This document shows, one piece after another, positions 1,396-33,371 of a stretch of 64,000 bases of DNA. A model generated the notes under the pieces. The model was not told where the DNA came from, searched no databases, and saw nothing but the letters and a program-made list of their open reading frames with translations. Origin of the DNA: Malacoraja senta (lineage: Eukaryota); NCBI GenBank assembly GCA_038087875.1, contig CM075987.1:25298001-25362000 (forward strand), written 5' to 3'. Each line of letters starts with the position of its first letter. Positions within the stretch are counted from its first letter, which is position 1. The position numbers and the translations under genes were made by a program.

Positions 1396-1581
1396 CTTCT
1401 TCTTCTTTTTGTGTCCAAATGTTGACCTCGCTGTCATCGTCCGTCCTGAAAAGGACACGAGCTTCCGGCGACAATCAGTGGGAGCCATCACTTGTCGCAA
1501 TAGATGATGGTGGTAGCAGAATTAGCTCGGGATACTTCCAGTTTCCAGCCCCGTGACGTGGACGCTTCTGCTATGGGGCCC
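1396..1581 (-). mobile_element. Short retroposon with a 5' HDV-like ribozyme and (GAA)n tail (type B)
   Basis: Minus strand starts GGGCCCC-A-TAGCAGAA and ends ggacacaaaaagaagaagaag. It interrupts a Rex1-like 3' UTR. No clear TSD. Confidence 0.75.
1514..1581 (-). ncRNA. HDV-like (CPEB3-like) self-cleaving ribozyme motif
   Basis: P1 GGCCCC/GGGGCU; P2 UAGCAGAA/UUCUGCUA; P3 GCG/CAC (1 mismatch); L3 UCCACGU; GG for P1.1; J4/2 CUAA. Confidence 0.85.
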
Positions 1582-23015: not shown

Positions 23016-23218
23016 AAAAAAAAGAAAGACACAGAGTACTGAAGTAACTCAGTGGGTCAGGCAGAATATCTGGAGAAAACGGATAAGTGACGTTTCGATT
23101 CGGGACCCTTCTTCAGAACGCCCAAGATCTCCAGAGATGCTGCCTGACCCGCTGAGTTACGCCAGCACTTTGTGTCTGTTTTTAACATCAGGTTGAGACA
23201 TTGGCCAGGAGTTTGGGC

Positions 23219-23524
23219 TTTAGTTTAATTTGGAGATACAGCGCGGAAACAGGCCCTTCGGCCCACCGAGTCCGCACCGACCAGCGATCCCCGCTAACAC
23301 TACCCTACACACACTATGGACAATTCACATTTGTACCAAACCAATTAACCTACAAACCTATATGCCTTTGGAGTGTGGGAGGAGACCGAAGATCTCGGAG
23401 AAAACCCACACAGGTCACAGGGAGAACGTACAAACTCCGTACAGACAAGCTCCCGAACTCAGGATCGAACCCGGGTCTCCGGCGTTGTAAGGCAGCAACT
23501 CTACCACTGCGCCACCATGCCACC
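23219..23524 (-). mobile_element. V-SINE (HE1-like), near full length
   Basis: A and B boxes, core and tail on minus. Confidence 0.85.
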
Positions 23525-24319
23525 CTTCAGGAAGACAAGTAAATCTACACAGGCACAGTAGTTATGTACGACAAGTATTGATTAAAAATATTATTGCTTT
23601 CTACATTTTTACGTTTCTCTTTTTAATTTCTGTTGTGCATCTTCAAAGTAACCTTGGCAATAAGATCCAGTCAGTTTCCTTGTGCATGAAAATTCTCTTG
23701 TTTTACAGATTACTGTGCGATCAGTTTTGAAAGGTGCAATAGCCTGTATTGAGCGACACGAGAAAACTAGTAGTTACCAGAGAAGGTGATTGAGCCAAAT
23801 ACGATAATATATCAGAACAATAGGTTGACAATACGATACCGGGGACAAACTTGAATCTCTAACTCCAAGTAACCCTCTCCTCTCCCCCTGTGCTTTTACA
23901 CACTAGAAAGTCTCTTCCAAAGCAATGGTATGAATATTGACTTCCCTAACTTCAAGTAACCCTTGCTTTCCCTCTCTCTCCATCCTTCGCCCATCCTGGT
24001 TCTCTGACTAGTTCTACTGTCCTCCAGATTAAATATTGCTAATTTTATGCCCCGTTGTCTCCTTCCCCTCAGCTAACAACGAACCATTCTACATTTCCTA
24101 GGTCATCATCCGCTTTGATCTGTTGTTTTCACACCATACCCTTCTACATCTCTAGACTCTCTTTCCCCTGACTCTCAGTCTGAAGAAGGGCCTCGACTCA
24201 AAACCTCACCCATTCCTTCTCTCCAGAGATGCTGCCTGGCCCGCAGAGTTACCCCAGCATTTCGTGTCTATCTTCCCAGTATAATCATTCGGCCATCCGG
24301 CAAGTGGCAAGGTCTGAAT

Positions 24320-24565: not shown

Positions 24566-26679
24566 ACCAGTTCAGTTCAGTTTGCATCAGTCTGAAGAAC
24601 GGTCTCGACACTGCAACGTCACCCATTCCTTCCCTCCAGAGATGCTTCCTGTCCCGCTGAATTACTCCTGACACATTTTGTGTCTATCTTCAGTTCAGTT
24701 TATTGTTTATTGCCACGTGTACCGAGGTAGAGTGAAAAGCTTTTGTTGCGTGCTAACCAGCCAGCGGAAAGACAATACCCGATTACAAGCGAGCCATTCT
24801 CAGTGTATGGATACATGATGAAGGGAATAATGATTAGTGCAAGGTAAAGCCGATAAAATCCAATCAAAGATAGTCCGGGGGTCCCCGATGAGGTAGATAG
24901 TAGTTCAGGACTGCTCTTTGGTGGCGGAAGGATGGTTCAGTTGCCTGATAACAGCCAACTAGCTGGAGTGTTCACGGACATCTTTTTTTCTTGCCCATCT
25001 CTGTTCTGAGGTACTTTCTTGCTTCAACAAGACCACCTGGTACCAAAGAAAAGCATGACCTCATACCACAGTCTGAAGAAGGGCTCTGACCCGAAACATC
25101 GCCAAAAGATGTTCTCCAGCGTTGAGTTACTCCAGCATTTTGTATCTTTCCTGAAGAGAAAATGACATACGTTCTAGGAGCAGAATTAGGCCATTCGGCC
25201 CATTATGTCTAGAAACATAGAAACATAGAAACATAGAAAATAGGTGCAGGAGGAAGCCATTCGGCCCTTCGAGCCTGCACTGCCATTCATTGTCTACTCC
25301 GCCATTCAACCATGGCTGATCTAATACCAACCTAACCCCATTCCCCAACCTAATACCCACCCAACCCCATTCTCCTGCCTTCTCCCCAAAACCTCTGACA
25401 CCTGTACTAATCAATAATCTATCCATCTCTGCTAGCCATTGACTTGGCAATGAATTCCAGATTCACCACTCTCTGACTAAAGAAATTCCTCCTCATTTCA
25501 TAAGGTCATAAAGAATAGGAGAAGAATTAGGCCATTCGGCCCATCATGTCTACTCCGTCATTCTATCGTGGCTGACCTATCTCTCCCTCCTAACCCCATT
25601 CTCCTGCCTTCTCCCCATAATCTCTGACACCTGTACTAATTCTGTCCTTCTGTCTTCTTCCCTAGTTCATGAAAGATGCATCCATTGTTCCCAATAGTGA
25701 ATCAGATTTCACTCAATGTGGAAGCTCAAAATGCAGAAAATAAGTCTGCGGTTTTGGAGGTCAACGGAAAATCCTTCAGTACTCCGTCACTGATTTTGCA
25801 AGAGGCAGAGAGGGATGGGCTAATGGCAAAGTTAATTTTATGAAATGAGTCAGTAGACACTCTGCGTTTCATGATTTATAGCTATCGTTATTCATTACAA
25901 TCAGACGTTCGGACAAGAAAAGTTGCCATGGTTTAACATGCAGACACTGATAAATTATTGTACGCATCCTTCACAAGCTTGGGTTCAATCCAAAACAAAA
26001 CCCTGGACCTTAGCTACTTGCTACAAGGATCCGTGCTCCACTTGTCATCTGATAGTTCCTGAATTCCTGGACAAGATTGCACCTCTGCTAATTTCAGTTT
26101 TGTTAAAAGATAATTCAGTGCAGGTTACGGGCACGGTGGAGTCACGGTAGAGTCGCAGCCTCACAGCGCCAGAGACCCGGGTTCGATCCCGACTACGGGT
26201 GCTGTCTGTACGGAGTTTGAGCGTTCTCCCCGTGACCTGCGTGGGTTTTCTCCGAGATCTTCGGTCTCTTCAAAGAACTACAGGTTTGTAGTTTAATTGG
26301 CTTGATATAAGTGTAGAATTGTCCCTAGTGTTAATGTGCGCTGGGCCGCAGGGCCTGTATCTCCAAACTAAATAATCTAAACGTTATTATTGCCACGTGT
26401 ACCGAGGTACAGTGAAAAGCTTTTGTTTGTGTGCTCGCCAGTGAAAGATAAGACTACACATCAATGCAATTGAGCTGTCCACAGTACACAGATCAAGGAT
26501 AAAGAGTACATCTTGTCGTGCAAGTTACAATGTTGAAGTCTGATAAAGTCCGATTACAAATAGTTCAAAGAACTCCAATGAGATAGATGGGAGGTGAGGA
26601 CCGCACTCTAGCCGATCGTTCCCTCGTGTGTCAGACAACGTGTAGCTCGCTGTTGGCTTCTGTCGTCGTCCAACATGTT

Positions 26680-27273
26680 TTTTTTGTTGTTTTTTTAAAA
26701 TATTATTTTTATTGGAAGCAATTGTACAAGAATAAAACATTCGACATGTAAAATTATACAATTATTGTCCAGCTACAATTTTGACCTTTTAACCTGAAAA
26801 TGAGGGAAAAGAAGAGAGAAAGAACAAGAGAGGGAAAAAGCGAAAAGTGAAAAGACAGGACCACTGGACTACCAGTGTGGCCAAAGAGTGAATAAAGATA
26901 TAAGCGAGGAAAAAAAAAAAAAAAAGTGGAGATATACCTGCTGCCCCTCGTTCCCCCCCCCCCCCGCCCCCCCCCCCCCCCGCCCACCTCACGCAACCAA
27001 TAATTGGATTTAAATCCAAAGTTGTGTTGCGCCATACTATCCTTGTAAGAATTCGGTGAAGGGTGTCCATGTCTTGAAAAATTGATCTGGTTTTTCTGCC
27101 AAGACGAGCCTAATATTTTCCAAATGTAGTGTCTCGGACATGTTTGTAATCCACATCTTCACAGTAGGGACTGATGTGTGTTTCCAAAATGTAAGTATTA
27201 GTTTTTTCGCCGTTATCAGGCCATAGTTAAGGAAACGTCTTTGAAATAATGTTAGCTCAGAACAGGCTTCTGA
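26680..27273 (-). mobile_element. 5'-truncated L1 (ORF2 C-terminus, 3' UTR, A-rich tail) with 13-bp TSD
   Basis: NYGLITAKKLILTFWK..PTVKMWITNMSETLHLE..FFKTWTPF; TSD cgtccaacatgtt at 26667-26679 and 27274-27286. Confidence 0.9.
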
Positions 27274-27310
27274 CGTCCAACATGTTGACATGAAATGGTC
27301 GCCCGACGCG

Positions 27311-27374
27311 TCACAGAATGCATCGTGTCATCGTTTCCAGGGATCACCACGAGGAGGCTTCTGTCATGATCCCC
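27311..27374 (-). ncRNA. HDV-like ribozyme motif, catalytic C apparently mutated to U
   Basis: P1 GGGGAUC/GAUCCCU; P2 ACAGAA/UUCUGU; P3 GCC/GGU; L3 UCCUCGU; GG; J4/2 UGCA. Confidence 0.8.
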
Positions 27375-27704
27375 ACTCTTGCTGATGAAAGGACAGTTCA
27401 CTTGCCTGCTAACAGTTGGGAACAAACTATGCCTGAATCTGGAGATAGACACAAAAAAGCTGGAGTAATTCAATGGATGAGGCAACATCTCTGGAGAAAA
27501 GGAATAGGTGACGTTTCAGGTTGAGATCCTCCTTCAGATTGAGAGTCAGGGAACCTGAGCTACGTACTTTCAGTCTCCTGCAAATTCTTCTGTCTGCCAC
27601 AAAGGTTTTAGGTGGTCCACAAGGAATTTAATTAAAATTCAATTTCATAAGATCATATGTGATGGGAGTAGAATTAGGCCCATTCGGCCCATCAAGTCTA
27701 CACC

Positions 27705-27904
27705 NNNNNNNNNNNNNNNNNNNNNNNNNNNNNNNNNNNNNNNNNNNNNNNNNNNNNNNNNNNNNNNNNNNNNNNNNNNNNNNNNNNNNNNNNNNNNNNN
27801 NNNNNNNNNNNNNNNNNNNNNNNNNNNNNNNNNNNNNNNNNNNNNNNNNNNNNNNNNNNNNNNNNNNNNNNNNNNNNNNNNNNNNNNNNNNNNNNNNNNN
27901 NNNN
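27705..27904. other. Assembly gap (200 N)
   Basis: Run of N. Confidence 1.
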
Positions 27905-28262
27905 GAGTAGGGGAATCGAGAAACCAGAGGACATAGGAACCCGAGGGTACTTTTTCATACAAAGGGTGGTGGATGTATGGAACGAGCTGCCAGAGGAGGT
28001 AGTTGTGGCAGGGACTATCCATACGTTTAAGAAACAGTTAGACAGGTAAGTGGATAGCACAGGTTTGGAGGGATATGTACCAAACGCAGGCAGATGGGAC
28101 TAATGTAGATAGGGCATGTTGGCCGGTGTGGGCAAATTGGGCCGAAGGGCCTGTTTTTATGTTGCAATCACCCCCTCTTCCTTTGCTACCCTTCACCTGC
28201 ATTGAGATGAAGAATGCTGTTGGATTCATACTAATTTGTAATAAGGTGACAATAAACTAAAC

Positions 28263-28552
28263 TGCACGGTGGAGCAGCGGTAGAGTTGCTGTCATCAGCA
28301 CATACAGCGCCAGATCTGCGGGTTCGATCCAAACTCTGAGTGCTGGAGTTTGTACGTTCTCCACATGAGCCCTTCGAGACCTTCAGTTTCCTCCCACATT
28401 CCAAAGACGTGCAGTTCCGATGGTTAATTGGGCTTGGTATAAGTGTAAATTGTCCTTAGTGTGTGTAGGATAGTGTTAATGTGCGGGGGACCGCTGGTCG
28501 ACGCCGACTCGGTGTCTGTTTCCGCGCTGTACTCTAAACCGAACTCAACTAA
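28263..28552 (+). mobile_element. V-SINE (HE1-like)
   Basis: gcacggtggagcagcggtagag, gggttcgatcc and the core. Confidence 0.8.
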
Positions 28553-29172: not shown

Positions 29173-32100
29173 ATGCATGACACCACACAAAAGAACCTAG
29201 GAGAATCTCATTTTGTAGTTGGAATATAAGAGGTATTAACGAACCTATCAAAAGGGGTAAGATATTAGCTCAGCTAAAAATGTATAATTTCAGACATTAC
29301 CTTCCTACAAGAACACACCTAAAACCTCAGGACCAAGTTAGGCTGAGGGCGAAATGGATAGTCAAACATACCACTCTTCATTCACTTCAAAATCTAGAGG
29401 CACGTCAATTATCATAAGAAAAGGTATACCATTTAAAGCAAAGAATATTATAACAGATATAGAAGGGAGATACCTAATAGTTAATGGAGAAATCCATGAC
29501 ACTCCACTTACTTTGGTAAATATATATGCCCCTAACTTTGATAACCCCCACTTTTTCAATAAAATCTTCAATATAATTGCAGAGTCAAACTATCAAAATG
29601 TTATAATAGGCGGAGACTTTAACTGTGTTTTAGATCCGTACTTAGATAAATCAAGTCAAAAACAGAGAGGGAATATGAAATCGAAAACTGGGGAACTCCT
29701 CAATACCTACATAAATAACACTAATATAGCAGATGTTTGGAGAATTGTGAATCCAACTGGCAGGGAATTTTCGTTTTACTCAATGGTACATAAGACATAC
29801 TCACGTATAGACTACTTTCTGCTGGATACAAAATTAATCCCCCAAACATCTAATGCAATATACCATACAAATTCAATTTCAGACCATTCTCCACTAACTT
29901 TCTTTTTAAAACTGGAAGGATTGTCTAAGAATAATTCATTCTGGAGATTTAACTCTCAAATTTTAAAAGATCCACAAGCGAGTATATATTTAAAAGAACA
30001 AATGGAGGTCTTTTTTCAAACAAATGATACTTCAGATATATCGCCTACTTTACTTTGGGAATCTTTTAAAGCATACATTAGGGGTATCATAATTTCATAT
30101 CAAGCTTTTCAAAATAAAAAGAATAAGAATGAACAAAGACAGTTAGAAGAACTTATTAGACAAATGGATATAGATAATGCTAAAGATCCATCAATAGATA
30201 AACATAATAAAATAATAATTTTAAAATTTAAATTAAATAAATTATTATCTGCCAAACTTATAAGACTTTTTCAAATTACAAAACAAGAGCACTTTGAATT
30301 TGGGATAAAACCGCATAAACTTTTGGCTCGCCAGCTAAAAAAACGAGAAAAGGAACATACTATACCAAAGATCAAATCAGATAAAGGGGAATTATTAACA
30401 ACACCGAAGGATATTAATAAAAGATTTGCGCAATTTTACGAGAATTTGTATACATCTAAAACGATAATTTGATTCCAATAATATCACAAAGTTCTTGGAT
30501 ACCTGTAATCTTCCAAAGTTAGAGCTGAAGGAACAAGAGGAACTGGGTGCACAAATCTCAATTAAGGAATTAGAAGATACAATAAACTCACTAAAAAATG
30601 GAAAAACACAGGCCCTGATGGATTTACTAATGAATTTTATAAAAGCTTTTATGATAAAATAATACCAAGATTACAAAAAATGTACCAATAACGCTTTTAA
30701 AAAACGAATACTACCTGATACATTAGTGGAATCAACGATTACATTAATACCTAAGAAAAATAAGGATTTAGAAGAACCTGGCTCATATAGAGCTATAGCA
30801 TTGTTAAACACAGATCAAAAAATATTAGCGAAAACATTAGCCAGAAGATTAAGTAAATACATTAGGAAATTAATAAACCCAGATCAGACAGGGTTTATCC
30901 CTAAGAGATACTCTTCTAATAATATGAGACGTCTACTCAACATAATGCACTCACACAAATCTGAAGATCAAGAATTATCAATTATTTCGCTGGATGCTGA
31001 AAAAGCATTTGATCAAGTAGAATGGAATTATATGGATAAAGTATTACAAAAATTTCAACTGGGAGAGATTTTATTTTATGGATTAAGTTACTATATAACA
31101 AACCTACAGCTAGAATACTTACTAATAACATATTATCCTCGAAATTCCAACTATCAAGGGGAAATAGACAAGGATGCTCATTATCACCACAGCTGTTTGC
31201 TCTCATTATTGAACCGCTAGCAGAAAAAATTAGAATACACCCTGATATTCATGGATATAATACTAAAGACTCATATAATAAAATATCTTTATACGCGGAT
31301 GATATATTATTGTATATACAAAACCTCAAATAACTATACCAAATATATTAAATTTAATTGAAGACTTCGGATCTTTTTCTGGATATAGAATAAATTGGAA
31401 TAAAAGTGAAATTATGTCAATAAAACCGAAAGATTCAACACATCTTTTAAAATTCCCTTTTAAAATAGCTACAGAAAAATTTAAATATTTGGGAATCGAA
31501 ATTACCAGAACATATCAAGGTATGCTCAGGGCAAATTTTGACCCCCTACTTAATAAACTGAATACATTAATTAAATTCTGGAAAACGCTCCCGATGTCTT
31601 TAATAGGCCGAATAAACGCAATAAAAATGATCTTTTTACCACAAATTTATACCTATTTCAATCAATTCCTATATACTTACCTAAGAAGTTTTTTAAAAAA
31701 ACTCGACTCAGATATCACTAATTTTATATGGGACTATAAATCACATAGAATACAAAAAACCCATCTGAATAAACCTAAAGTATTGGGGGGTCTAGCACTA
31801 CCTATTTTATGTATTATTATTGGTCAGTAAATATTAAAAACATGATTCAACTGATGGATAACTCCGCCCAGCAAGTAGACTGGATTGTAATGGAGAAAGA
31901 GGATTGCTCCTCTAGAAACATTGGAGCGATCCTCCTCTCTCCAATGAAATTGAATAACATAAACTATAATAAGAACCCAATTATTCATAGTACAATCCGT
32001 ATTTGGAAACAAATAAAACAAAATTTAAAATTAAGAAACTTATCACTTTTATTACCTATAGTCAATAACCCTTCGTTTAGTCCTTCTATTATAGATAAAG

Positions 32101-33371
32101 CTTATACACAATGGGATAGACTAGGGAATTAAAACGCTTGGTGACTTGTATGAAACTGGAAAATTACTTTCATTCAACAATTACAAATAAAATATAAACT
32201 CGGAAATAATCAATATTTTAAATACTTTCAAATATGCGACTATTTGAAAAAATATATAAAAGATCATCATAATAACCCAGCAGATGTACTGGACGAGGCA
32301 ATGCAGACAAAAGCGGAATCAACAAACTTAATATCATATTTGTACAATATATCTTAAATGTACAAATACCATCTACGGAGGGTATCAGAAGAGACTGGAA
32401 CAAGAGTTAGCTATTAAAATTTCAAAGGAAAGTTGGAATGAATACTTATTAAAAGTGCATAAATGCTCGATTAATGTAAGACACACTTTAATACAATTTA
32501 AAATTTTACATAGATTATATTATTCGAAAACTAAAATTCATAAAATGTTCCCAAACGTATCATCTATTTGTGATAAATGTCAATCCCAAGAAGCAACTAT
32601 AGCGCACTCATTTGTCTTCTGTACAAAAATTCAAAAATTTTGGAATGAAATTTTTGAAATCTTTACAAAGTTATTTAAAACAAGACTGATACCCAAAGCA
32701 GAATGGATTATCTTCGGAATAACGGAAGATGATCCAGAACTAAATGAGTTTCAAAAGAAATTAATGGATTAGGGTTAATAACTGGAAAAAAGCTAATTCT
32801 AAAATTTTGGAAGAAGGCTCCAATACCAACTATAAATATGTGGATTTCAAATATGTTTGAAACATTACACCTTGAAGAGATAAGACTCCTCCTAGCAGGT
32901 AAACCAGATCACTTCCACCTGACGTGGTCTGCATTTATAGAATTATTACAACATAGGGTGCAAAAGTACTTTAAAAAAAATAAAAAATGAGGTCGGGTAA
33001 GGGGGGATGATAGTTGAAGAGTTGGTATGTCCTATTTACGTGATGCTCAAAAAAAAAAAAACATTTGTTTCTCTTTTTTTCTCTTTCTCTTCTTTTCTTA
33101 GGGCCTATTTCTTAACTCTTTTCTTTTGTTTTTAATTTCGCTCTTATAGGGTCTTCGTCCTTTTTTGTTGTTACATTTTCTACACTTTTCTACACTTGCA
33201 CTTTTTCCTTCACTTTCTTCTCTCTTTCAATCTTTTCTTTCTCTAGTGTAAAAAATAAATAAAGGGAGTACATTAATTGTAAGAAGATATAAATGACGAG
33301 TATTAATGTATGTGGTTGTAATGTAATGTACCTTCATAATAAATAAAAATTAAAAAAAAAAAAAAAAAAAA
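29173..33371 (+). mobile_element. L1-clade LINE lacking ORF1; complete but frameshifted ORF2 (about 29173-32956), 3' UTR and poly(A)
   Basis: APE endonuclease (SWNIRG, NIYAPN, GGDFN, SRIDY, SDH); RT (YRAIAL, DAEKAFD, RQGCSLSP, YADD); CCHC knuckle CDKC..AHSFVFC; AATAAA + A20. Confidence 0.95.

What the first reader, a model, noticed from the sequence alone, without database searches (positions are those of the whole stretch)
26617..27374. Type C ribozyme element with an HDV-like L3, a C-to-U catalytic knockout and a nested L1
Seen (minus, 27374-27311): GGGGAUC-A-UGACAGAA-GCC-UCCUCGU-GGU-GAUCCCU-GG-AAACGAUGACACGA-UGCA-UUCUGUGA. P3/L3 (GCC-UCCUCG) matches the HDV genomic ribozyme core as I recall it. 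The catalytic position (27322) reads U, consistent with CpG decay; the equivalent C75U is the classic inactivating change. An L1 with its own 13-bp TSD splits the body, giving the age order Rex1, then ribozyme element, then L1. No clear (GAA)n tail.
Basis: partly seen in the sequence, partly recalled or inferred. Interest (0 to 1): 0.7.

Follow-up and report, generated by a model that had tools for sequence, protein, structure and literature searches.

The report
Ribozyme-headed mini-retrotransposon, split by L1
This is one worn copy of a 150-base hitch-hiking retrotransposon that starts with an HDV-like self-cleaving RNA fold and was later split by another mobile element; the proposed catalytic C-to-U knockout comes from misreading the fold.

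Summary
It belongs to a family of about 150-bp elements flanked by target-site duplications (791 rough candidates in the 1.94-Gb genome). Copies begin exactly at G1 of an HDV-like ribozyme and end in GAAC repeats. All 39 other copies examined are continuous across the point where the window copy carries a 594-bp poly(A)-tailed L1-like insert with a perfect 13-bp duplication.

The "C-to-U catalytic knockout" is not supported: 27322 is T in 39 of 39 other copies. The better-supported fold is 88 nt. It has a perfect 8-bp P2 (UGACAGAA/UUCUGUCA), a real P4 hairpin and J4/2 = CCAA. That places the catalytic C at 27298, which is intact. The window-specific lesions are A80-to-T in J4/2 and an extra A in the P2 3' strand.

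The family is an internal-deletion derivative of a compact endonuclease-plus-RT LINE. It keeps about 126 nt of the 5' end and about 26-28 nt of the 3' end. This makes it a new member of a known kind. The "Rex1" host was not verified. Cleavage was not shown.

One side lead: sister LINE ribozymes score up to 64 bits on the mammalian CPEB3 model.

The parts
27375..27385 (-). Upstream copy of the target-site duplication of the ribozyme element (tcagcaagagt)
   Evidence: It matches 26615-26605 (tcggctagagt) at 9 of 11 positions. The empty-site paralogue L079 shows an 11-nt overlap of the two flanks.
27286..27374 (-). HDV-like ribozyme, 89 nt in this copy and 88 nt in intact copies. P1 27374-27368 with 27345-27339. 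P2 27366-27359 with 27294-27286. P3 27358-27356 with 27348-27346. L3 27355-27349. P1.1 27354-27353 with 27338-27337. P4 27333-27304. J4/2 27298-27295.
   Evidence: Rfam hits; alignment to seven other ribozyme families of the same genome (type A, F1-F6); pair counts; energies.
27322..27322 (-). In the supported fold it lies in the P4 loop.
   Evidence: T in 39 of 39 other copies.
27295..27298 (-). J4/2. It reads CCAT in the window and CCAA in intact copies. 27298 (C77) is the proposed catalytic C. 27295 carries a window-specific A-to-T change.
   Evidence: C77 is present in 34 of 39 copies, with 5 one-C variants. C78, A79 and A80 are each 39 of 39. The HDV model's catalytic C column aligns to C77. 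Column 77 is C in 12 of 13 aligned ribozymes, and columns 79-81 are invariant.
27291..27291 (-). Window-specific extra A inside the P2 3' strand (TTCaTGTCA instead of TTCTGTCA)
   Evidence: Gap in 39 of 39 other copies.
27318..27318 (-). Window C-to-T change at position 57. It lengthens the decoy P2 strand from 5 to 6 pairs.
   Evidence: C in 35 and T in 4 of the 39 other copies. The parser finds TTCTGT only in the window copy.
27281..27283 (-). ATG inherited from the parent LINE's open reading frame, 3 nt after the ribozyme
   Evidence: The parent-LINE copy L112 has the ribozyme, then ATGTT..., then the endonuclease reading frame.
27274..27286 (-). Upstream copy of the 13-bp duplication made by the L1-like insertion
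   Evidence: Identical to 26679-26667.
26680..27273 (-). 5'-truncated L1-like LINE fragment. It carries the end of the ORF (stop at 27037-27039), a 3' UTR with G and T homopolymer runs, and an A-rich tail.
   Evidence: The encoded peptide is 64.5% identical over 62 aa (E 1e-23) to the C-terminal end of a LINE at window 29.3-33 kb that has Exo_endo_phos and RVT_1 domains.
26667..26679 (-). Downstream copy of the 13-bp duplication of the L1-like insertion
26616..26666 (-). 3' part of the ribozyme element. The last 26 nt (26641-26616) are the module shared with the parent LINE's 3' end, ending in a degenerate GAAC tail.
   Evidence: Contiguous with the 5' part in 39 of 39 other copies. The module is shared with LINE 3' ends L103 and L111.
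26605..26615 (-). Downstream copy of the element's target-site duplication
26385..27551 (-). Host repeat, about 400 bp without the two nested insertions, into which the ribozyme element inserted
   Evidence: Paralogues L079 and L081 are continuous across the site. There are more than 5,000 rough candidates, and most matches start at the same boundary.

Best explanation
Window 27374-26616 (minus strand) is one decayed copy of a short, non-autonomous non-LTR retroelement, about 150 bp long. The element is an internal-deletion derivative of a compact LINE that encodes an endonuclease and a reverse transcriptase in a single reading frame. I call this parent 'LINE-C'. The derivative is a SIDE in the sense used for R2 elements.

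It keeps the LINE's first 126 nt or so: an 88-nt HDV-like ribozyme plus the first 12 codons or so. It also keeps the LINE's last 26-28 nt, which contain the stop-codon region, plus a (GAAC)n tail.

Inferred life cycle:
1. The element has no promoter of its own and is transcribed as part of host transcripts.
2. The ribozyme cuts just 5' of G1 and so defines the RNA's 5' end.
3. The LINE's protein recognises the shared 3' module and copies the RNA into a staggered nick by target-primed reverse transcription. This gives 10-12 bp duplications that abut G1.

The ribozyme fold is P1 1-7/30-36, P2 9-16/81-88, P3 17-19/27-29, P1.1 C21C22/G37G38, P4 42-71 and J4/2 C77-C78-A79-A80. The catalytic C is C77 (or C78 in copies with a single C).

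The window copy still has these C's. It carries A80-to-T and a 1-nt bulge in P2, and it was then split at position 100/101, outside the ribozyme, by a younger L1-like insertion.

Shown here: sequence, family, ends, duplications, parent LINE and fold support. Inferred: cleavage, mobilisation in trans, and loss of activity in this copy.
For: Family and ends:
- A search with the first 114 nt gave 791 rough candidates, of which 40 were scored at 89-100% identity.
- 37 of 39 alignments start at element position 1 (the reference copy L007 is included).
- 24 of 39 copies have an exact direct repeat of 9 nt or more ending at the base before G1 (three pairs are segmental duplicates).
- The 3' 20-mer occurs 98 times against 0 for the reversed control.
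- Of 20 such sites sampled, 14 are ribozyme-bearing copies, 5 are 5'-truncated copies (4 of them with clear target-site duplications) and 1 is a LINE 3' end.

Parent LINE:
- L111 is 37-54% identical in protein to the F1 LINE ORF over aa 247-940 and ends in the same 3' module.
- L112 has the type-C ribozyme (85% identity over element positions 1-126), followed by the endonuclease reading frame.
- The F1 ORF has Exo_endo_phos and RVT_1 domains.

Fold:
- In intact copies the only full complement to the strand abutting P3 is TTCTGTCA, preceded by CCAA.
- RF00094 aligns its whole model (1-89) to L004 1500-1591 and puts its J4/2 C on C77. RF02682 pairs CGACG with CGUCG as P4.
- MAFFT, with no structure input, aligns CCAATTCTGTCA with the C[G/T/C]AAT... 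strand of seven other families (type A, F1-F6).
- On that alignment 87.2% of cells pair, against 37-50% when the partners are slid. 9 of 19 pairs change on both sides. P2 is 95.2% paired, with 5 of 7 pairs compensatory.

Window lesions. Nesting order.
Against: - No cleavage was observed. In the one poly(A) RNA-seq run with raw reads, only 38 reads lay on an intact copy. No pile-up of read starts was seen at G1. 14 reads continued upstream across the G1 junction. The library shows reads in both orientations and the depth is about 20, so this is weak.
- All Rfam scores for type C are below the gathering thresholds: 27.7 and 24.9 against 35 for CPEB3, 19.9 against 50 for HDV, 18.1 against 44 for the F. 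prausnitzii model.
- About half of the copies (21 of 39) have G1-C36 instead of the canonical G1-U wobble.
- Covariation evidence comes from comparison between families, not within type C. Type C's own P4 is supported only by energy and by two weak model alignments.
- Only one ribozyme-bearing parent-LINE copy (L112, 85% identical and decayed) was found. 0 of 39 copies found with the 5' query were LINEs.
- The LINE's clade was not determined.
Confidence: 0.8

Rival explanations
1. This is a compact, nearly P4-less HDV-like ribozyme with P2 = ACAGA(A)/(U)UCUGU and J4/2 = UGCA. Its catalytic C, at 27322, decayed to U through CpG deamination.
For: The Rfam CPEB3 model aligns its J4/2 C to this U, both in the window copy and in an intact copy. 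The following base is G, so a former CpG is formally possible. P4-less relatives do exist in this genome (family F3).
Against: - T at this position in 39 of 39 other copies, and also in the parent-LINE copy L112 (GATGCAC). There was therefore no post-insertion decay.
- In intact copies this P2 is only 5 bp, with mismatches at both ends, and it does not abut P3.
- The -AA- that is invariant in all 13 aligned ribozymes is missing from this J4/2.
- Energy is -4.9 against -20.4 kcal/mol.
Confidence: 0.03
2. The short fold is right, but the catalytic C is the conserved C55 (27320), two bases 3' of the reader's position, with J4/2 = CAC.
For: C55 is C in 39 of 39 copies. P4-less HDV-like ribozymes occur in the same genome (family F3).
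Against: - There is no A-A in this J4/2.
- P2 is 5 bp and is separated from P3 by an A-C mismatch in 35 of 39 copies.
- Two independent Rfam models and the MAFFT alignment all choose the long fold.
- Conservation of C55 is uninformative, because nearly every column is at least 90% conserved in these young copies.
Confidence: 0.07
3. The HDV-like fold is an inherited relic that no longer cleaves in this lineage. The element's 5' end is set by transcription initiation, for example an internal promoter as in the Pr77 region of L1Tc, or by some other processing.
For: No read-start pile-up at G1, and 14 of 38 reads cross the junction. Half of the copies have G1-C36. All Rfam scores are below threshold.
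Against: - Element starts coincide with G1 to the base in 37 of 39 alignments, and the duplications abut G1.
- Every helix and J4/2 is intact in the majority sequence.
- Subfamily-level changes keep pairing: C45-to-U gives G-U, and A49-to-G gives G-U in P4.
- Sister families keep the fold through compensatory changes.
Confidence: 0.1

Closest known systems
HDV-like ribozymes at the 5' ends of non-LTR retrotransposons (R2, RTE, Baggins, L1Tc)
   Same: The ribozyme is the first element-encoded sequence, so cleavage 5' of G1 would release the element RNA from a co-transcript. The ORF start lies just downstream. The element is found in many copies with conserved downstream and variable upstream sequence. 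This pattern is described in the review PMC6765202 (passages read) and in PMC8256844 (passages read).
   Different: The host is a 1.94-Gb vertebrate-like genome. The parent LINE's clade was not determined; its RTE-like compact architecture is my inference. Cleavage was not tested here. The primary paper (Ruminski et al. 2011) was not held, so I could not check whether this family is already listed.
R2 SIDEs (Short Internally Deleted Elements) of Drosophila
   Same: Both are non-autonomous elements made of the parent LINE's 5' ribozyme joined to its 3' end, and both are propagated by the parent's machinery (abstract of PMC3414825).
   Different: These are dispersed rather than rDNA-specific, and abundant rather than rare (hundreds of copies). 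The 3' part is only about 26-28 nt plus a GAAC-repeat tail. About 12 codons of the ORF start are retained.
NARTc / L1Tc of Trypanosoma cruzi
   Same: A non-autonomous element that shares the autonomous LINE's 5' HDV-like ribozyme (abstracts in the listing).
   Different: Unrelated sequence and host. No evidence here that the ribozyme DNA also acts as a promoter. The tail is not poly(A).
HDV genomic ribozyme (Rfam RF00094)
   Same: AGCCUCCUCG (P3 5' strand plus L3) is identical to the model consensus. P1.1 has two G-C pairs, there is a 3-nt J1.1/4, P4 is long, and J4/2 is C-N-A-A. The features of the genomic ribozyme are as described in bioRxiv 10.1101/2022.09.22.508989 (passages read).
   Different: 19.9 bits against a gathering score of 50. 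P1, P2 and P4 sequences are unrelated. It sits in a retroelement, not in a circular RNA replicon.
Mammalian CPEB3 ribozyme (Rfam RF00622)
   Same: Same fold. Sister families in this genome score 44-64 bits and share AGAAGCGUUCACGUCGCG, CCCUGUCA and GCGAAUUCU with the model consensus.
   Different: Type C itself scores only 25-28 bits. Its L3 is UCCUCGU and its P1.1 has two G-C pairs. These are multi-copy LINE heads, not a single conserved intronic locus.

Membership tests
HDV-like self-cleaving ribozyme | Nested double pseudoknot: P1, P1.1, P2, P3 and P4 in the canonical order | tested here: met
   All helices can be drawn on intact copies. Across 13 ribozymes of 8 families, 87.2% of cells pair, against 37-50% when partners are slid, and 9 of 19 pairs change on both sides. 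P4 is supported by energy and by two weak model alignments only.
HDV-like self-cleaving ribozyme | Catalytic C as the first base of J4/2, followed by N-A-A and then the P2 3' strand | tested here: met
   CCAA at positions 77-80. C77 is 34 of 39 (5 single-C variants); C78, A79 and A80 are each 39 of 39. It aligns with the C of RF00094 and with the C of 11 of the 12 other aligned sequences. That this C is the catalytic one rests on established knowledge of HDV C75, cited in the passages.
HDV-like self-cleaving ribozyme | G1 at the cleavage site, forming a G-U wobble that closes P1 | tested here: inconclusive
   G1 is 38 of 39. Its partner, position 36, is U in 15, C in 21, A in 2 and a gap in 1. 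The window copy has G-U.
HDV-like self-cleaving ribozyme | Rfam curated score threshold | tested here: not met
   CPEB3 27.7 and 24.9 bits against 35. HDV 19.9 against 50. HDV-F-prausnitzii 18.1 against 44. Sister families do pass: 39 of 59 scored matches are over the threshold.
HDV-like self-cleaving ribozyme | Self-scission 5' of G1 | tested here: inconclusive
   Indirect support: elements begin at G1 in 37 of 39 alignments. Directly: no pile-up of starts and 14 of 38 RNA reads crossing the junction, in one poly(A) run. A bench assay is needed.
SIDE / LINE-dependent non-autonomous retroelement | 5' and 3' ends identical to those of an autonomous LINE, with the interior deleted | tested here: met
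   L112 carries element positions 1-126 at the head of the LINE, before the endonuclease ORF. L103 and L111 end with the same module of about 26-28 nt.
SIDE / LINE-dependent non-autonomous retroelement | Signs of target-primed reverse transcription: target-site duplications, 5' truncations, variable repeat tail | tested here: met
   24 of 39 copies have an exact duplication of 9 nt or more. 5 of 20 sampled 3' ends are 5'-truncated copies, 4 of them with clear target-site duplications. Tails have 2-4 GAAC units.
Rex1 (as host of the insertion) | Homology to the Rex1 reverse transcriptase or to a named Rex1 3' end | not tested
   The host is non-coding, about 400 bp, with a recurrent 5' boundary. 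No reference Rex1 sequence was available in the tools.
L1 clade (the nested insert) | Poly(A) tail, 5' truncation and duplication of 7-20 bp; ORF2 with APE and RT domains; placement in the L1 clade | tested here: inconclusive
   An A-rich tail, a 13-bp duplication and a C-terminal peptide matching an APE+RT LINE in the window are met. Clade placement by phylogeny was not done.

The most novel reading that the evidence does not exclude
One LINE superfamily in this vertebrate-like genome carries both 'CPEB3-type' ribozyme heads and 'HDV-genomic-type' heads.
- The CPEB3-type heads have L3 UUCACGU and a weak P1.1. They score up to 64 bits on the mammalian CPEB3 model, and family F2 even shares the P4 sequence.
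- The HDV-genomic-type heads are type C: AGCCUCCUCG, a P1.1 of two G-C pairs, a 3-nt J1.1/4 and a long P4.

The boldest reading not excluded is that the single-copy mammalian CPEB3 intron ribozyme is an exapted head of such a LINE or SIDE. More speculatively, deltavirus ribozymes may have drawn on the same retroelement pool.

I found no statement of this in the papers searched (passages read). The key reviews and Ruminski et al. 2011 were not held.
Probability: 0.3. Interest if true: 0.75.

Novelty: new member of a known kind. Interest (0 to 1): 0.3.

Why it matters
For this locus, little: it is a dead, interrupted copy of an abundant repeat, and the advertised "natural C75U-like knockout" does not exist.

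For the family, the interest is moderate. It is a clean vertebrate-genome example of a LINE that delegates 5'-end formation to an HDV-like ribozyme, and of how 126 nt plus about 26-28 nt of that LINE are enough to make a successful parasite of it. That defines a very small candidate 3' recognition module.

The decoy P2 strand is also a practical warning. The short CPEB3 covariance model mis-parses long-P4 HDV-like ribozymes and mis-assigns the catalytic C.

The side observation is the part worth following. CPEB3-grade and HDV-grade cores sit side by side on related LINE heads, which bears on where the mammalian CPEB3 ribozyme came from.

Tried and rejected
- **RNA evidence.** The look-up of sequencing runs listed no holder on record as RNA. 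One 2026 poly(A) raw-read run (X11), added because it shares a study with a DNA holder, was laid on L004:1380-1780 together with three contig sets. Only 38 reads lay on it, all from other copies. There was no start pile-up, so the result is inconclusive. The contig sets only show that the family is present under other coded organism labels.
- **Covariation within type C.** Not informative. The 39 copies differ from their majority by a median of 7 of 148 positions, mostly through CpG decay.
- **Family F2.** A search for better-preserved copies of this CPEB3-like family found only 4 copies.
- **Earlier notes of this scan.** Three look-ups, nothing held.
- **Ruminski et al. 2011.** PMC3308841 was not held.
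- **Literature on cartilaginous or other fish.** One search was badly posed and returned only genome papers. It does not show absence.
- **Loci for the 98 sites of the 3' 20-mer.** I sampled 20 short stretches instead.
- **Clade of LINE-C and LINE F1, and of the L1-like insert.** Not determined. Pfam gives only Exo_endo_phos and RVT_1. I ran no further search on names.
- **Chance resemblance.** Rejected, given the family size, the exact ends and the cross-family pairing.
- **A longer L1 duplication.** The first 9 nt of the insert (tcagaagcc, 27273-27265) resemble element positions 104-112. The duplication could therefore be up to about 22 nt with a 3-nt gap, or this could be junction microhomology. 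Left open.
Full report
**1. The observation**

Rfam's CPEB3_ribozyme model matches 27385-27312(-) at 27.7 bits. That is below its gathering score of 35, with E 3.3e-4 for the 6 kb searched and 3.5e-3 for the whole window. A second hit, at 32.1 bits, lies at 1591-1515(-).

The window belongs to a 1.94-Gb eukaryotic assembly. A stretch at about 27706-27903 is masked with N.

**2. It is a family, with exact ends**

A search of the window's own genome with 27400-27287(-) gave 791 rough candidates. Forty were scored at 89-100% identity, and their matches begin at or a few bases before G1. I fetched the 39 other places.

- Against one natural copy (L007), 37 of 39 alignments start at element position 1. 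All 39 run uninterrupted across position 100/101, where the window copy is broken.
- The element is about 150 bp. It begins GGGGATC and ends ...GACACACGAGCGAAC(GAAC).
- In 24 of 39 copies an exact direct repeat of 9-12 nt ends at the base before G1. Three pairs of these copies are segmental duplicates.
- The window copy's own duplication is degenerate: tcagcaagagt at 27385-27375 against tcggctagagt at 26615-26605, matching at 9 of 11 positions. A paralogue of the host repeat without the insertion (L079) shows the two flanks overlapping by 11 nt.
- The window copy differs from the majority of the other 39 at 9 of 152 positions. Five of those differences are C-to-T.

**3. The nested insert**

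In the window, 27273-26680 (594 bp) lies between two perfect copies of aacatgttggacg (27286-27274 and 26679-26667). It ends in an A-rich tail. It encodes the last 60-odd residues of a LINE ORF. That peptide is 64.5% identical over 62 aa (E 1e-23) to the C-terminal end of an element at 29.3-33 kb of the window, which carries Exo_endo_phos and RVT_1 domains.

So "nested, 5'-truncated, poly(A) LINE with a 13-bp duplication" is confirmed. Placement in the L1 clade was not tested.

The insertion point is after position 100, outside the ribozyme.

**4. The "catalytic U"**

Position 53 (27322) is T in 39 of 39 other copies. It is also T in the one parent-LINE copy found. It is therefore not a post-insertion CpG decay.

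**5. The fold**

In intact copies, the strand that must pair with the P2 5' strand abutting P3 (UGACAGAA, positions 9-16) has one perfect complement. This is UUCUGUCA at 81-88, preceded by CCAA.

It looks better in the window copy only because of a private C57-to-T change; C is found in 35 of the 39 other copies.

Four lines of evidence agree on the long fold:

- **Rfam models on an intact copy.** The HDV_ribozyme model aligns over its full length (1-89) to L004 1500-1591 and puts its J4/2 C on C77. It scores 19.9 bits, E 0.37, well below its threshold. The F. prausnitzii HDV model pairs CGACG (42-46) with CGUCG (67-71) as P4.
- **Alignment without structure input.** MAFFT aligned 13 ribozymes from 8 families of this genome. 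It places type C's CCAATTCTGTCA on the others' CGAA/CTAA/CCAA-plus-P2 strand. Columns 79-81 and 84 are invariant, and column 77 is C in 12 of 13.
- **Pair counts on that alignment.** For the named structure (P1, P2, P3, P1.1), 87.2% of cells pair, against 37-50% with the partners slid by 1-3 columns. Nine of 19 pairs change on both sides. P2 is 95.2% paired, with 5 of 7 pairs compensatory. 0 of 500 shuffles reach the observed covariation score. The tool's caveat that relatedness inflates the shuffle control applies.
- **Energy.** The nested part of the long fold evaluates to -20.4 kcal/mol, against -4.9 for the short one. The P4 hairpin appears in the unconstrained minimum-energy structure.

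The catalytic C is therefore most likely C77 (27298), or C78 in the 5 of 39 copies that have a single C. Both are present in the window copy.

The window copy's private lesions in this fold are A80-to-T at 27295, where A is 39 of 39 elsewhere, and an extra A at 27291 inside the P2 3' strand, absent from 39 of 39. That these lesions cripple the ribozyme is inference from the known roles of J4/2 and P2.

**6. The HDV resemblance is real**

AGCCUCCUCG is identical to the RF00094 consensus. P1.1 has two G-C pairs. Three unpaired A's precede P4. In the passages I read of the CPEB3 crystal-structure preprint, these features separate the genomic HDV ribozyme from CPEB3.

**7. What the element is**

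The 3' 20-mer occurs 98 times in the genome, against 0 for its reversed control. I sampled 20 of these sites:

- 14 are ribozyme-bearing copies;
- 5 are 5'-truncated copies, 4 of them with clear target-site duplications;
- 1 (L103) is the 3' end of a LINE coding region.

That LINE ("LINE-C") has at least 183 rough candidates for its 3' region. A longer copy (L111) is 37-54% identical in protein to residues 247-940 of another LINE of this genome (F1). It ends with the same module, inside which its stop codon lies.

A copy reaching further 5' (L112) has the type-C ribozyme and the next ~38 nt (85% identity over element positions 1-126). The endonuclease reading frame follows directly.

Type C is thus the LINE's first 126 nt or so joined to its last 26-28 nt. 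This is the architecture that Eickbush and Eickbush named SIDE for R2 (abstract). The ATG of the LINE ORF lies 3 nt after the ribozyme (27283-27281 in the window).

The F1 LINE (L071 99-3233) is 3.1 kb. It has one 940-aa ORF with endonuclease and RT domains, a (GAA)n tail and a CPEB3-type ribozyme head. Type C instead carries 2-4 GAAC units.

**8. Mechanism**

The following is inferred:

1. The element is co-transcribed with host RNA.
2. It self-cleaves 5' of G1.
3. LINE-C protein recognises the short 3' module.
4. Target-primed reverse transcription follows, at sites that often read T/C then AC. These give microhomology with the GAAC tail.

The exact coincidence of element starts with G1 is what this model predicts. 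Direct evidence for cleavage is lacking. In the one poly(A) RNA-seq run with raw reads, only 38 reads lay on an intact copy. There was no pile-up of starts at G1, and 14 reads ran on upstream of it. That is weak evidence against efficient cleavage, or simply read-through and antisense RNA.

**9. Host repeat**

The flanks belong to a non-coding repeat of about 400 bp. It has more than 5,000 rough candidates and a recurrent 5' boundary, and it ends ...ttcactgtacctcggtacacgtggcaataataa. The nesting order (host, then type C, then L1-like insert) is confirmed. The name "Rex1" is not.

**10. Comparison with what is known, and novelty**

HDV-like ribozymes at the heads of R2, RTE, Baggins and L1Tc elements, and ribozyme-bearing non-autonomous derivatives, are established (passages; abstracts). 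This is a new member of that kind, not a new kind. I could not read Ruminski et al. 2011, so prior listing of this very family cannot be excluded.

**11. Side lead**

The mammalian CPEB3 model finds 59 scored matches in this genome. Thirty-nine are over its threshold and the best scores 64.2 bits. The examples I inspected all sit at element heads. The F1 head shares AGAAGCGUUCACGUCGCG, CCCUGUCA and GCGAAUUCU with the model consensus. The low-copy family F2 also shares most of P4.

CPEB3-type and HDV-type cores therefore coexist on related LINE heads. In the papers I could search and the passages I read, I found no statement that the CPEB3 ribozyme derives from such a LINE. That is a lead, not a result.

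**Verdict**

The element is real and the nesting is correct. The headline interpretation, a catalytic knockout, is wrong. The copy is ordinary, and the family is moderately interesting.

Noticed in passing
window 1396-1581 (-): A second ribozyme-headed short element ('type A'). CPEB3 model hit at 1591-1515(-), 32.1 bits. J4/2 is CUAA, P2 is AGCAGAA/UUCUGCU, L3 is UCCACGU with GG for P1.1, and it ends in aaaaagaagaagaag.
   Followed up: partly
own genome; loci L041-L070, L071 (99-3233): The mammalian CPEB3_ribozyme model gives 59 scored matches, 39 over threshold, best 64.2 bits. They fall into several families at retroelement heads. One is a 3.1-kb single-ORF endonuclease+RT LINE with a (GAA)n tail (F1). 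Another is a low-copy family (F2, 4 copies) whose P4 also resembles CPEB3.
   Followed up: partly
loci L061, L063, L067-L070: A family of SINE-like elements of about 190 bp whose HDV-like ribozyme has no P4 at all (...GGCCCCTGTTTCCACCAATCTTTCC). G1 pairs with C, the tail is AAGAAG, and the duplications are 10-11 bp. It scores 37-44 bits on the CPEB3 model.
   Followed up: no
type-C copies, element positions 36/45 and 41/49/77: There are linked subfamily variants: U36/C45 against C36/U45 (G1-U against G1-C closing P1). A third group has G41, G49 and a single C in J4/2. The P4 changes keep pairing as G-U.
   Followed up: partly
L111 3' end; L103: The parent LINE's stop codon (TGA) lies inside the terminal module shared with type C, about 17 nt before the repeat tail. 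The LINE therefore has almost no 3' UTR, and its candidate 3' recognition signal overlaps coding sequence.
   Followed up: no
window 27273-27265 vs 26663-26655: The first 9 nt of the L1-like insert (tcagaagcc) nearly repeat the element sequence just beyond the 13-bp duplication (acagaagcc). Either the duplication is longer with a 3-nt deletion, or this is 5'-junction microhomology.
   Followed up: no
window 29181-32951 (+): A longer copy of the L1-like LINE, with endonuclease and RT domains in several broken frames. It is related to the insert that splits the ribozyme element.
   Followed up: partly
window ~27706-27903: A run of N (withheld or masked stretch) 330 bp upstream of the element, inside other repeats.
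   Followed up: no
window 26150-26260 (-), 23186-23542 (+), 28231-28455 (-): Pieces of what looks like a tRNA-derived SINE (..gggatcgaacccgggtctctggcgctgtgaggc..) recur around the locus. The whole neighbourhood is nested repeats.
   Followed up: no
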